58,651 nucleotides of DNA, from assembly GCA_964581035.1 (NCBI GenBank), contig CAZOLO010000005.1:1-58651 (forward strand), in the 5' to 3' direction. Of this stretch, positions 3,618 through 6,693 are shown one piece after another (the first letter of the stretch is position 1; each line of letters begins with the position of its first letter). The notes under the pieces were generated by a model, which ran no database searches, had not been told where the DNA came from, and was given only the letters and a program-made list of their open reading frames with translations. The stretch is from an uncultured Candidatus Saccharibacteria bacterium. GTDB lineage: Bacteria > Patescibacteriota > Minisyncoccia > Phycocordibacterales > CSBR16-119. The position numbers and the translations under genes were made by a program.

Positions 3618-3622
3618 ATTTG

Positions 3623-3695
3623 TCGGAGTGCCGGGATTCGAACCCGGAGTCACCCGTACCCAAAACGGGCATGTTAGCCGTTACACCACACTCCG
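3623..3695 (-). tRNA. tRNA-Pro(TGG), CCA not encoded
   Basis: Reverse complement CGGAGTG...CCCGT-TT-TGG-GT-ACGGG...CCGGG-TTCGAAT-CCCGG-CACTCCG-A. Confidence 0.95.
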
Positions 3696-4852: not shown

Positions 4853-4892
4853 GCAAAGAAAGAAGTTTCTTTGCTCCTCTTGTGTGTCACGG

Positions 4893-4933
4893 AATAGCAA
4901 AAAACACACAAATATTGTGTGTTTTTTGCTATT
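4893..4933 (-). terminator. tRNA-Arg terminator, perfect 19-bp inverted repeat
   Basis: AATAGCAAAAAACACACAA-ATA-TTGTGTGTTTTTTGCTATT. Confidence 0.75.
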
Positions 4934-4935
4934 TG

Positions 4936-5007
4936 TGCACCCGGAGGGATTCGAACCCCCAACGACGGTTCCGAAGACCGGTATGATATCCATTTCACTA
5001 CGGGTGC
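4936..5007 (-). tRNA. tRNA-Arg(TCG), CCA not encoded
   Basis: Reverse complement GCACCCG..CGGT-CT-TCG-GA-ACCG..GGGGG-TTCGAAT-CCCTC-CGGGTGC-A. Confidence 0.93.
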
Positions 5008-5034: not shown

Positions 5035-5118
5035 GGGTAGATTATATGACGTTTCCCCAAATAAAGCAATACATTTTAGTAAAAAAGTGTTATGATTTAA
5101 TAGTTAATCATTAAATAT

Positions 5119-5171
5119 GTGGGTATAAGCCATCGGGGCAATATACCAGGGTTCGAATCCCTATATCCGCA
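5119..5171 (+). ncRNA. Anticodon-less tRNA-like element in the cca leader (candidate)
   Basis: GTGGGTA/TATCCGC-A acceptor-like stem; GCC-ATCGG-GGC D-like arm; AGGG-TTCGAAT-CCCT T arm; extended -10 TGTTATGAT at 5088-5096. Confidence 0.55.
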
Positions 5172-5181
5172 AAACAGATCA

Positions 5182-6693
5182 ATGCAAACAATGCATTTTA
5201 AAATACCAAAAGAAGTAGTCAAAGTTGTTGAAACCCTTAAAAATGGAGGTTTTGAGGCATTTTTGGTAGGTGGATGTGTTAGAGATCTTTTAACAAACAA
5301 GAATCCAAAAGATTGGGACCTAACAACAAATGCAAAACCAGAACAAATTCAGGGGTTGTTTGAAAAAACAGTATATGAGAATAACTTTGGGACAGTTGCT
5401 ATTGTGAACGAAGACTTAGAACAGGACAGCCCGGTTAGAGTAATAGAAGTAACTCCTTATAGGACAGAGACAACCTACAGTAATAATCGTCACCCAGATG
5501 AAGTATCTTTCAGTGAAAACCTGGAGGATGATCTAAAGAGAAGGGATTTTACTATGAATGCAATAGCCCTTGAAGTCAAAGGGTTTCTCATGGACAGCGA
5601 TAAAGGACAGGAGGTTATTATAAAAGACATGTATGGTGGCATAAAAGACATTCAAGAGCAGACTATTAGAGCGGTGGGGGATGCTAATGAAAGATTCCAA
5701 GAAGACGCTCTTAGAATTATGCGTGCTATAAGATTTTCTTCACAACTTGGTTTCATGGCAGATTCTGAAGTTCTAGAGGCTATGGAAAAGAACAAGACCC
5801 TAATGGCAAATATATCTGAGGAAAGAATTCGAGATGAATTAGTAAAGATCATAAACTCAGACGATCCAATGATAGCTTTCGTTACAATGCAACGAATCGG
5901 AATATTACCTTATGTAATCTCTGAGCTCGAGGAGATGATAAAAATTGAACAGGGAGGAGAGCATATCTACGATGTGTGGGAGCATTCACTGAGAGCCTTG
6001 CAGAATGGGGCTGACAAAAAGAATCCGTTTCACGTGAGACTTGCTGCGCTATTCCACGATATAGGGAAACCACGAACTAGAAAACCTGACCCAAAGGGGA
6101 AGGGTTGGACTTTCTATGCCCATGAGGTGATTGGGGCAAGAATGACTAAAAAGATCATGAATAGGCTACACTTTTCACGTGAAACCACAGAAAAGGTTGT
6201 TTCACTTGTGAGATGGCATATGTTTTTCTCAGATCCAGACCAAATAACACTTTCAGCTGTAAGGAGACTTATACGAAATGTAGGACCTGAGCTAGTTTGG
6301 GATCTTATGGATGTTCGCAGATGTGACCGAATAGGGATGGGAAGGCCAAAAGAAGCTCCATATAGACTAAGAAAGTTTGAGGCTATGATTGATGAGGTAA
6401 GTAGAGATCCAGTCTCAGTGAAACAGCTCAAACTCAATGGAGATATCATGCTGGCAGAACTTGGCATGAAACCAGGTAGGGAAATAGGTTGGATACTCCA
6501 CGCACTGCTGGAAGAAGTGCTAGATGACCCAAAAAAGAATGAATTGGAGTACCAAAAATGTCGTGCCCAAGAACTCCTAGATTTACCAAAAGAAGAACTT
6601 AAAAAGCTTGGTGAAGCAGGGAAGGAGGCAACAGAAGAGGCGGAAGAGGCAGAATTGAAGGAGATTAGAAAGAAACATAAGGTAGGTAAGTAA
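5182..6693 (+). CDS. cca: CCA tRNA nucleotidyltransferase with HD domain
   Basis: LVGGCVRDLL..KDWDL, DLKRRDFTMNA, RFQEDALRIMRAIRF, HS..FHDIGKP; start at MQTMHF (5182 or 5191) rather than the GTG at 5119. Confidence 0.92.
   Translation: MQTMHFKIPKEVVKVVETLKNGGFEAFLVGGCVRDLLTNKNPKDWDLTTNAKPEQIQGLFEKTVYENNFGTVAIVNEDLEQDSPVRVIEVTPYRTETTYSNNRHPDEVSFSENLEDDLKRRDFTMNAIALEVKGFLMDSDKGQEVIIKDMYGGIKDIQEQTIRAVGDANERFQEDALRIMRAIRFSSQLGFMADSEVLEAMEKNKTLMANISEERIRDELVKIINSDDPMIAFVTMQRIGILPYVISELEEMIKIEQGGEHIYDVWEHSLRALQNGADKKNPFHVRLAALFHDIGKPRTRKPDPKGKGWTFYAHEVIGARMTKKIMNRLHFSRETTEKVVSLVRWHMFFSDPDQITLSAVRRLIRNVGPELVWDLMDVRRCDRIGMGRPKEAPYRLRKFEAMIDEVSRDPVSVKQLKLNGDIMLAELGMKPGREIGWILHALLEEVLDDPKKNELEYQKCRAQELLDLPKEELKKLGEAGKEATEEAEEAELKEIRKKHKVGK
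6026..6041. promoter_or_regulatory. parS: parS-like site (inside cca)
   Basis: CGTTTCACGTGAGACT. Confidence 0.55.
6171..6186. promoter_or_regulatory. parS: parS-like site (inside cca)
   Basis: CTTTTCACGTGAAACC. Confidence 0.6.

What the first reader, a model, noticed from the sequence alone, without database searches (positions are those of the whole stretch)
5088..5184. Anticodon-less tRNA mimic 10 nt upstream of the CCA-adding enzyme start codon
Seen: 53 nt GTGGGTA-TAA-GCC-ATCGG-GGC-AATATAC-CAGGG-TTCGAAT-CCCTA-TATCCGC-A. This gives a 7-bp acceptor-like stem (2 G-U), a D-like arm, only 7 nt where the anticodon and variable arms belong, a canonical T loop and discriminator A. An alternative GGTATA/TATACC pairing competes with the acceptor stem. 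It lies between an extended -10 box and the cca ATG, and both tRNAs in this window need CCA addition. Known: Cca, RNase P and RNase Z recognise the acceptor/T-arm half of tRNA, not the anticodon. Inference: a cis-acting tRNA mimic through which Cca or tRNA-processing nucleases regulate cca mRNA, or a processed tRNA-like small RNA. I know of no described leader like this.
Basis: partly seen in the sequence, partly recalled or inferred. Interest (0 to 1): 0.78.

Follow-up and report, generated by a model that had tools for sequence, protein, structure and literature searches.

The report
Anticodon-less tRNA-Gly relic before cca
The 53-base tRNA look-alike in front of the CCA-adding enzyme gene is what remains of a glycine tRNA gene that lost its anticodon arm, and it probably survives as a cutting signal that frees the enzyme's messenger RNA.

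Summary
It is not a newly evolved mimic. It is the positional ortholog of tRNA-Gly(GCC). In 13 other Paceibacteria loci, and in a sister genus of the same family, that tRNA sits 4-23 nt upstream of cca in the same tRNA-Pro / yraN-like / tRNA-Arg neighbourhood. In this genus (3 genomes) about 18 nt covering the anticodon arm are missing, and no intact tRNA-Gly(GCC) was found elsewhere. The relic is exactly 53 nt in all three. It keeps 93% of stem pairs, three by compensatory change, and all 11 tRNA elbow/core nucleotides. It evolves at roughly a third to half the rate of cca four-fold sites. However, its predicted fold is weak and the flanking intergenic DNA is more conserved. cca is usually leaderless in relatives, and here nothing separates the relic from the ATG. 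My best reading (about 0.5) is a bacterial counterpart of plant-mitochondrial t-elements: a tRNA-shaped signal excised by RNase P and a 3' nuclease. Cca feedback is neither supported nor excluded. No expression data exist.

The parts
4935..5007 (-). tRNA-Arg(UCG), divergent neighbour, no encoded CCA
   Evidence: ARAGORN; Rfam tRNA 61.2 bits. 69-72 of 73 nt are identical among the three genomes of the genus. It is next to cca in most of the order.
5088..5096 (+). extended -10 promoter box TGTTATGAT; a start near 5102-5104 is inferred
   Evidence: Read from the sequence. TG-n-TAnnnT is kept in all three genomes of the genus and upstream of full-length tRNA-Gly in the tRNA-Gly->cca loci. The simple promoter scan did not list it because it needs a -35 match. 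The start site is inferred, not shown.
5119..5171 (+). 53-nt anticodon-arm-less relic of tRNA-Gly(GCC)
   Evidence: Layout: acceptor 5119-5125 with 5164-5170; D-like hairpin 5129-5131 with 5137-5139; T stem 5148-5151 with 5159-5162; T loop 5152-5158; discriminator A 5171. Supporting calls: 1, 24, 25, 50, 51, 61, 65.
5172..5181 (+). 10-nt spacer AAACAGATCA without a Shine-Dalgarno motif or a -10 box at leaderless distance
   Evidence: The spacer is 8 nt in G002 and 10 nt in G001.
5182..6693 (+). cca-like gene (class II nucleotidyltransferase with an HDIG domain), 503 aa
   Evidence: NCBIfam TIGR02692 276 bits and NF009814 252 bits, both below the equivalog cut-offs. HDIG domain 37.4 bits, above its cut-off. 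A match was found in 57 of 61 genomes searched, the window's own among them.

Best explanation
The element is the remnant of the tRNA-Gly(GCC) gene that, in this order of Paceibacteria, often forms a two-gene transcription unit with cca: promoter, tRNA-Gly, 4-23 nt, cca ATG. In the ancestor of this genus about 18 nt (the 3' strand of the D stem through the anticodon arm) were deleted. Decoding of GGN passed to the single tRNA-Gly(UCC). The remaining top half (acceptor stem, T arm, D-loop GG) was kept. Inferred mechanism: transcription starts about 15 nt upstream at the extended -10 promoter. The relic folds into a tRNA-like L-shaped top half. RNase P cuts at its 5' end, and the 3' tRNA-processing route cuts after the discriminator. 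This releases a cca mRNA with an 8-10-nt leader lacking a Shine-Dalgarno motif, close to the leaderless form that cca has in most relatives. The freed 53-mer is a by-product and a likely Cca substrate. The origin is shown; cleavage and its benefit for cca expression are inferred.
For: ORIGIN.
- A covariance model built from the three relics finds, in 85 of 150 other genomes of the order, mostly 71-nt matches. Those checked in the cca loci coincide with ARAGORN-called tRNA-Gly(gcc).
- Alignment to 11 tRNA-Gly(GCC) genes gives one 18-19-nt gap.
- 13 distinct loci have the order Pro-, yraN-like-, Arg-, Gly(gcc)+, then cca with a 4-23-nt spacer, the same as the window.
- In the sister genus g3 (G004) a full tRNA-Gly(GCC) ends 9 nt before the cca ATG. 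It aligns colinearly with the relic and has a single 18-nt gap.
- A tRNA-Gly(gcc) query finds full-length copies in G003 and G005. In the three genomes of this genus it finds only a partial match to tRNA-Gly(tcc). ARAGORN and Rfam find 30 tRNAs in the own genome, none of them Gly(GCC).

CONSTRAINT.
- The relic is exactly 53 nt in all three genomes, while the adjacent intergenic DNA carries a ~60-nt indel.
- 92.9% of stem cells pair and 3 pairs changed on both sides; slid controls give 33-67%. RNAalifold predicts the same fold without being given it.
- Pairwise differences are 26-40%, against 53-63% at cca four-fold sites.
- All 11 positions chosen beforehand as tRNA core/elbow nucleotides (U8, A14, G18, G19, G53, T54, T55, C56, R57, A58, C61) are invariant, against 28 of 53 invariant columns overall (hypergeometric P = 2.8e-4).

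CONTEXT.
- The extended -10 box upstream is conserved, and there is no room for a promoter in the 8-10-nt spacer.
- In relatives a -10-like hexamer ends 6-9 nt before the cca ATG in 75 of 135 loci. SD-like motifs occur in 5 of 135 loci, and in 0 of the 29 loci with a co-oriented tRNA nearby.
- RNase P RNA is present in 2 of the 3 genomes of the genus.

PRECEDENT.
- tRNA-like t-elements lacking the anticodon stem-loop direct RNase P/Z cleavage at mRNA ends in plant mitochondria (PMC1920247 and PMC4836652, passages read).
- Bacterial RNase P binds the elbow and acceptor stem and cleaves minimal stem-loop substrates (PMC4836652, passage).
Against: - No transcript data. The RNA runs that share words with the stretch cover only the conserved tRNA-Arg and scattered cca pieces from other organisms.
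- The predicted fold is weak and no better than shuffles in two species: -12.1 kcal/mol (z 0.05) and -6.6 kcal/mol (z 0.21). In G001 the minimum-energy structure is not the tRNA-like one.
- Two of the three species have a mismatch in the acceptor stem.
- The pair-count shuffle control is only marginal: 42 of 500 shuffles reach the observed values. Three sequences give little power.
- The flanking intergenic DNA is more conserved (77-82% identity over aligned columns) than the relic (60-74%).
- No canonical RNase Z was found in the genus; only RNase J and an aCPSF1-like beta-CASP nuclease were found. The 3' cut therefore has no named enzyme.
- RNase P RNA was not found in the window's own assembly.
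Confidence: 0.5

Rival explanations
1. Decaying pseudogene. After the deletion the relic has no RNA-level role. It persists only because it lies between the one promoter and cca, and its partial conservation reflects constraints on the cca 5' region.
For: Low folding stability with z near 0 in two of three species. Acceptor mismatches in two species. It diverges about ten times faster than the neighbouring tRNA-Arg (14-21 of 53 differences against 1-4 of 73) and is less conserved than the flanking intergenic DNA. It is confined to one genus.
Against: There are no indels in 53 nt, although the neighbouring DNA has a 60-nt indel. It diverges clearly more slowly than four-fold sites. Changes in stems are mostly compensatory or wobble-compatible. 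All 11 elbow/core nucleotides are invariant (P = 2.8e-4). None of these four points is expected from a constraint that acts only on DNA or on translation.
Confidence: 0.22
2. Regulatory tRNA mimic. Cca, or RNase P load, binds or processes the element and thereby tunes cca translation or mRNA stability. Alternatively, the released CCA-tailed 53-mer acts in trans as a decoy for tRNA-binding enzymes.
For: The retained parts (acceptor stem, T arm, elbow) are also those that class II CCA-adding enzymes bind (established knowledge, recalled). The linkage with cca is tight, with only an 8-10-nt spacer. By my reading of the ARAGORN sequences, most of the genome's 30 tRNAs lack an encoded CCA.
Against: A full, functional tRNA occupies the same place in relatives. 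The position is therefore inherited rather than evolved for sensing. There is no conserved alternative structure that could act as a switch. Most relatives express cca from a plain leaderless promoter. There is no experimental support.
Confidence: 0.15
3. Uncleaved 5' stabiliser. The tRNA-like fold stays on the cca mRNA and protects it from 5'-3' decay by RNase J, and translation starts internally on the A-rich spacer.
For: RNase J is encoded: TIGR00649 450 bits, above the cut-off. No RNase Z was found for a 3' cut. The spacer is A-rich.
Against: A folded tRNA-like body 8-10 nt from the AUG would hinder the 30S subunit. The fold is too weak to be a good block. Retention of elbow nucleotides is not needed for a simple protective hairpin.
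Confidence: 0.08
4. N-terminal coding extension of Cca starting at the GTG at 5119.
For: The frame is open from 5119 in this genome and in the same register in G001.
Against: G002 has GCG instead of GTG at that position. Its spacer is 8 nt rather than 10, so the element is read in another frame there and no common peptide results. Cca of relatives starts at the position of the 5182 ATG.
Confidence: 0.01

Closest known systems
t-elements of plant mitochondria (tRNA-like processing signals at mRNA ends)
   Same: They are tRNA-like structures that lack the anticodon stem-loop and carry the GGTTCRANYCC T-arm motif. They sit directly beside an mRNA end and are thought to be cut by RNase P and RNase Z. 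The excised elements carry non-encoded C/CCA (PMC1920247 and PMC4836652, passages read).
   Different: This element is in a bacterial chromosome rather than an organelle. Its ancestry is traceable to one orthologous tRNA gene that is still intact in a sister genus. It precedes the gene of the CCA-adding enzyme itself. No RNase Z is detectable in the genus. Its ends are not mapped experimentally.
Co-transcribed tRNA-mRNA units and mitochondrial tRNA punctuation
   Same: A tRNA body directly abuts a coding region, so tRNA excision creates a leaderless or near-leaderless mRNA. The ancestral state here is tRNA-Gly(GCC) 4-23 nt before cca. The punctuation model and bacterial examples such as the tufB operon are recalled, not read.
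   Different: Here the punctuating tRNA has lost its decoding part and seems to be kept only as punctuation.
mascRNA / menRNA (MALAT1, NEAT1 3'-end tRNA-like elements; Rfam RF01684)
   Same: A tRNA-like module in a longer transcript is cleaved by RNase P and RNase Z and then CCA-tailed (PMC8457004, search listing and abstract start only).
   Different: Those are eukaryotic, retain a reduced anticodon arm and serve 3'-end formation. Rfam RF01684 does not hit the element; it gives only a weak match on the neighbouring tRNA-Arg.
tRNA gene fragments / att scars left by integrases
   Same: Both are partial tRNA sequences beside tRNA genes.
   Different: Scars are 3' fragments duplicated from an intact neighbouring tRNA. 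This element has both acceptor strands, an internal deletion, no intact parent in the genome and no mobile-element gene beside it.

Membership tests
Canonical tRNA (Rfam RF00005) | Cloverleaf with an anticodon arm; detected by tRNA gene finders | tested here: not met
   There is no anticodon arm: only 8 nt lie between the D-like hairpin and the T stem. ARAGORN does not call it. RF00005 gives no hit in the region at E<=10 or in the three genomes at E<=0.01.
Canonical tRNA (Rfam RF00005) | 7-bp acceptor stem, T arm with T-Psi-C loop, U8/A14/G18/G19 core nucleotides | tested here: met
   90.5% of acceptor cells and 100% of T-stem cells pair. The T loop is TTCGAnn, and all 11 core positions are invariant.
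Ortholog of tRNA-Gly(GCC) | Sequence homology to tRNA-Gly(GCC) over the acceptor stem, D region and T arm | tested here: met
   Model R1, built from the relics, hits 71-nt tRNA-Gly(gcc) genes. tRNA-Gly(gcc) is the best-scoring class in pairwise alignment for all three relics, although tRNA-Ser(act) is close for the own genome (20.6 against 19.8). The alignments have a single gap.
Ortholog of tRNA-Gly(GCC) | Same genomic position as tRNA-Gly(GCC) in relatives | tested here: met
   The order Pro-, yraN-like-, Arg-, Gly+, cca+ is seen in 13 loci and in G004 of the same family.
Ortholog of tRNA-Gly(GCC) | GlyRS acceptor-stem identity pairs kept (G1:C72, C2:G71, G3:C70; the identity set is recalled) | tested here: not met
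   Pair 2:71 is U-G, C-G and U-A in the three species, and 3:70 is G-U in one. The anticodon is absent, so continued glycylation is unlikely.
t-element-like tRNA-shaped processing signal | Non-canonical tRNA-like fold lacking the anticodon stem-loop, with the GGTTCRANYCC motif, abutting an mRNA end | tested here: met
   GGTTCGAATCC lies at 5150-5160. Variants in the other two species are GGTTCGACCCC and AGTTCGAATCT. The element ends 8-10 nt before the ATG.
t-element-like tRNA-shaped processing signal | Transcript ends coincide with the element's ends; cleavage by RNase P or a 3' nuclease | not testable with these tools
   The only RNA runs are contigs that do not cover the element.
tmRNA tRNA-like domain | Acceptor and T arm enclosing a tag reading frame and pseudoknots | tested here: not met
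   RF00023 matches only 15 nt of the T arm at 9.9 bits. The genome's real tmRNA is at G000 C8:31798-32174.
Integrase att scar / tRNA 3' fragment | A copy of the 3' end of an intact tRNA in the same genome, next to a mobile element | tested here: not met
   There is no parent tRNA-Gly(GCC) in the genome. The genome holds a single copy of the element. The 5' acceptor strand is present. Only short spurious ORFs lie between 4400 and 5182.

The most novel reading that the evidence does not exclude
The relic has become a load sensor for tRNA maturation. Translation of cca would require excision of a tRNA-shaped leader by the same enzymes that prepare Cca's substrates. The excised 53-mer, once CCA-tailed, would compete with tRNAs for Cca or RNase P. 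Together these would give a feedback loop that couples Cca synthesis to the demand for tRNA 3'-end repair in a genome where most tRNAs lack an encoded CCA.
Probability: 0.12. Interest if true: 0.8.

Novelty: new variant of a known kind. Interest (0 to 1): 0.5.

Why it matters
It would be a dated, stepwise example in a free-standing bacterial genome of a tRNA gene losing its decoding half while its top half stays under selection. The intact form is still present in a sister genus. It would also show tRNA punctuation with a t-element-like signal outside organelles. It shows that cca in this order of Paceibacteria is either leaderless or fused behind a tRNA. This bears on how these reduced genomes start translation without Shine-Dalgarno sites. 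It also warns annotators that tRNA finders miss such relics, and that one genus reads all GGN codons with a single tRNA-Gly(UCC).

Tried and rejected
1. Expression. 24 runs were listed and four RNA or possibly-RNA runs were laid. Only tRNA-Arg and scattered cca pieces from other organisms were covered, and all were contigs, so they say nothing about the element.

2. Other anticodon-less relics.
- Model R1 was searched in 150 other genomes of the order, in the 19 other genomes of the family and in 178 cca loci.
- The seven short hits lie inside ARAGORN-called tRNAs: Ser-gga three times, Gly-gcc, Glu-ctc and Gly-ccc twice.
- Six hits that were not 71 nt long (L047, L062, L067, L093, L186, L195) were also checked and lie inside or overlap ARAGORN-called tRNAs.
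- Two overlapping 31-nt AT-rich hits (L049:11-42, one on each strand, 20.1 bits each) and a few 73-nt hits were not inspected individually.
- No further relic was found outside the genus.

3. The alternative GGTATA/TATACC helix is not conserved.

4. A coding extension from the GTG at 5119 is rejected by the frame difference in G002.

5. An att scar, a tmRNA piece and mascRNA are rejected.

6. Closer relatives in metagenomes: none was above 58% Cca identity. In genome contigs the only close ones are the two genomes of the genus already held.

7. Folding z-scores do not support the structure on their own.

8. RNase P RNA of G001 was used as a blastn query against the own assembly, with no hit.

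9. Literature. Seven searches found no description of a tRNA-like leader of cca or of anticodon-less tRNA relics in bacteria. Papers outside the held library and all supplements were not seen.

Full report
**What is there.** The cca-like ORF starts at the ATG at 5182, 10 nt after the discriminator A. TG-n-TATGAT lies at 5088-5096. ARAGORN calls only tRNA-Pro(UGG) at 3622-3695 (-) and tRNA-Arg(UCG) at 4935-5007 (-). Rfam's tRNA model does not hit the element. The minimum-energy fold is an acceptor stem, a small hairpin and a T arm, but at -16.5 kcal/mol it is not unusual (z -1.31). The genome (745 kb, 15 contigs, 99% complete) holds one copy. Record titles of the nearest genomes name Paceibacteria and other Patescibacteria.

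**Conservation.** Cca was located in 57 of 61 genomes searched, the window's own among them. The two other genomes of the genus (Cca 84-85% identical) carry a 53-nt element of the same shape, 8 or 10 nt before the same ATG and behind the same extended -10 box.
- There is no indel among the three copies. The adjacent intergenic DNA has a ~60-nt indel in one of them.
- With the tRNA-like structure, 92.9% of pair cells are standard pairs. Three pairs changed on both sides (2:51, 11:21, 32:42). Sliding the partner by 1-3 columns drops pairing to 33-67%. The shuffle control is only marginal (42 of 500).
- RNAalifold, given no structure, predicts the same fold.
- The competing GGTATA/TATACC helix is not conserved.
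- Pairwise differences are 14-21 of 53 (26-40%). At four-fold sites of cca they are 53-63%, and in the neighbouring tRNA-Arg 1-4 of 73.
- All 11 positions that I fixed beforehand from general tRNA knowledge as core or elbow nucleotides (U8, A14, G18, G19, G53, T54, T55, C56, R57, A58, C61) are invariant. Overall 28 of 53 columns are invariant (P = 2.8e-4).

Results against constraint:
- The aligned flanking intergenic DNA is more conserved (77-82%) than the element.
- Two species have an acceptor-stem mismatch.
- The folds of the other two copies are weak: -12.1 kcal/mol (z 0.05) and -6.6 kcal/mol (z 0.21). The minimum-energy structure of the latter is not tRNA-like.

**Origin.** A covariance model of the three copies (R1) was searched in 150 other genomes of the order. 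85 had a match, nearly all 71 nt long.
- In the cca loci these matches coincide with ARAGORN's tRNA-Gly(gcc).
- The seven short hits, and six further hits that were not 71 nt long, proved to lie inside or to overlap ordinary tRNAs. No further relic was found outside the genus. Two overlapping 31-nt AT-rich hits in L049 and a few 73-nt hits were not inspected individually.
- Among 175 distinct cca upstream contexts, the nearest upstream tRNA is Arg(tcg) on the opposite strand in 116 and Arg(tcg) on the same strand in 23. It is Gly(gcc) on the same strand in 13 and Arg(cct) on the same strand in 1. There is none within 400 nt in 11, and 11 loci held too little sequence.
- The 13 Gly loci have the order Pro-, yraN-like gene-, Arg-, Gly+, then cca after 4-23 nt. 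This is the window's own layout with the relic in place of tRNA-Gly.
- Within the family, G004 (genus g3) has a full tRNA-Gly(GCC) followed by C and a 9-nt spacer before the cca ATG. It aligns colinearly from the promoter to the ATG with a single 18-nt gap in the relics.
- MAFFT also places one 18-19-nt gap against 11 tRNA-Gly(GCC) genes.
- A tRNA-Gly(gcc) query finds full-length genes in G003 and G005. In the three genomes of this genus it finds only a partial match, at tRNA-Gly(tcc).
- The own genome has 30 tRNAs by two methods, with one tRNA-Gly(UCC) and single U34 tRNAs for several four-codon boxes. GGT and GGC nevertheless make up 44% of Gly codons.

The element is therefore a tRNA-Gly(GCC) gene that lost its anticodon arm before the three species split.

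**Context of cca expression.**
- In 135 loci without a nearby co-oriented tRNA, a -10-like hexamer ends 6-9 nt before the ATG in 75. An SD-like motif occurs in 5. This group includes the three relic loci, because ARAGORN does not call the relic.
- In the 29 loci with a co-oriented tRNA within 70 nt, no SD-like motif occurs. Nine have such a hexamer 6-7 nt before the ATG.
- cca is therefore typically leaderless or follows a tRNA directly.
- Upstream of tRNA-Gly in the Gly->cca loci there is the same kind of extended -10 box as in the window.
- In the genus no -10 box lies at leaderless distance from the ATG. Transcription must therefore run through the relic.

**Mechanism (inferred).** The parts that were kept are the acceptor stem, the T arm and the D-loop/T-loop elbow. 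Bacterial RNase P contacts exactly these parts (PMC4836652, passage). Plant-mitochondrial t-elements are described as tRNA-like structures lacking the anticodon stem-loop. They direct RNase P/Z cuts at mRNA ends and carry untemplated C/CCA (PMC1920247 and PMC4836652, passages).

I therefore read the relic as a bacterial t-element. It would be excised from the promoter-relic-cca transcript, leaving a near-leaderless cca mRNA. RNase P RNA is found in two of the three genomes of the genus but not in the window's own assembly. No RNase Z reaches the family cut-off. RNase J and an aCPSF1-like beta-CASP nuclease are present, so the 3' cut has no named enzyme. That route must nevertheless exist, because most tRNAs here lack an encoded CCA. 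The Cca-like protein matches CCA-adding and poly(A) polymerase models below the equivalog cut-offs and has an HDIG domain.

**Rivals.**
- A functionless decaying pseudogene fits the weak fold and fast drift. It does not fit the fixed length, the compensatory changes or the invariant elbow.
- A Cca-sensing or decoy role needs the same features and cannot be separated from processing with these data. It is disfavoured because the position is inherited from a working tRNA and no switch-like alternative structure is conserved.
- A coding extension is excluded by the frame difference in G002.
- No expression evidence could be obtained.

**Verdict.** It is a new variant of a known kind (tRNA-like processing signals). 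Interest is moderate.

Noticed in passing
Not in the window. G000 C9:25913-26043(-), C4:50252-50386(+), C13:297-425(-), C9:33838-33972(-), C8:31612-31755(-), C13:23024-23152(+) (the first four are held as L222, L221, L224 and L223); also downstream of tRNAs in L014, L021, L022, L031, L036: A multi-copy structured element of about 130 nt trails tRNA genes, and in one case the tmRNA gene. Its closing stem of about 13 bp has a 3' strand that copies the upstream tRNA's T-stem and acceptor 3' strand plus AC. Its 5' strand has drifted through G-U pairs, which points to RNA-level pairing. The conserved core folds as a three-way junction: 25 of 44 predicted pairs show compensatory change. Copies: 6, 18 and 9 in the three genomes of the genus, and sporadic matches in 10 of 38 other relatives. 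A related subset was searched in Rfam without a hit, and no paper was found. It could be a tRNA-targeting miniature mobile element or a minihelix-like RNA. It deserves its own study.
   Followed up: partly
cca loci L009-L195: cca appears to be a leaderless mRNA in much of this order. A -10-like hexamer ends 6-9 nt before the ATG in 75 of 135 loci, and an SD-like motif occurs in only 5 of 135. tRNA-Arg(UCG), tRNA-Gly(GCC) and tRNA-Pro(UGG) stay clustered with cca but flip strand often.
   Followed up: partly
G000 whole genome (e.g. C10:50-138, C6:45582-45657): The tRNA set is reduced to 30 genes by ARAGORN and by Rfam. Single U34 tRNAs serve the Val, Ala, Pro and Gly boxes. ARAGORN calls an unusual tRNA-Ser with anticodon ACT, and tRNA-Lys(UUU) was not found. 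Some genes may lie in assembly gaps.
   Followed up: no
G000, G001, G002 genomes: No RNase Z reaches the family cut-off in the genus, although most tRNAs lack an encoded CCA. RNase J and an aCPSF1-like beta-CASP nuclease are present. RNase P RNA was found in G001 and G002 but not in the own assembly.
   Followed up: partly
G000 C8:31798-32174 (-): ARAGORN reported no tmRNA in the genome, but Rfam RF00023 finds one at 117.6 bits.
   Followed up: yes
window 4887-4938: A perfect hairpin of about 20 bp (GCAAAAAACACACAA...TTGTGTGTTTTTTGC) lies directly after the 3' end of tRNA-Arg. It showed up only as weak microRNA-like Rfam matches and is probably a terminator.
   Followed up: no
G036:C8:15841-17400, G040:C41:710-2251, G045:C2:21846-23486: The Cca match is split into an N-terminal piece and a C-terminal piece within one open frame in three genomes of the order. 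This suggests an insertion in the head domain.
   Followed up: no
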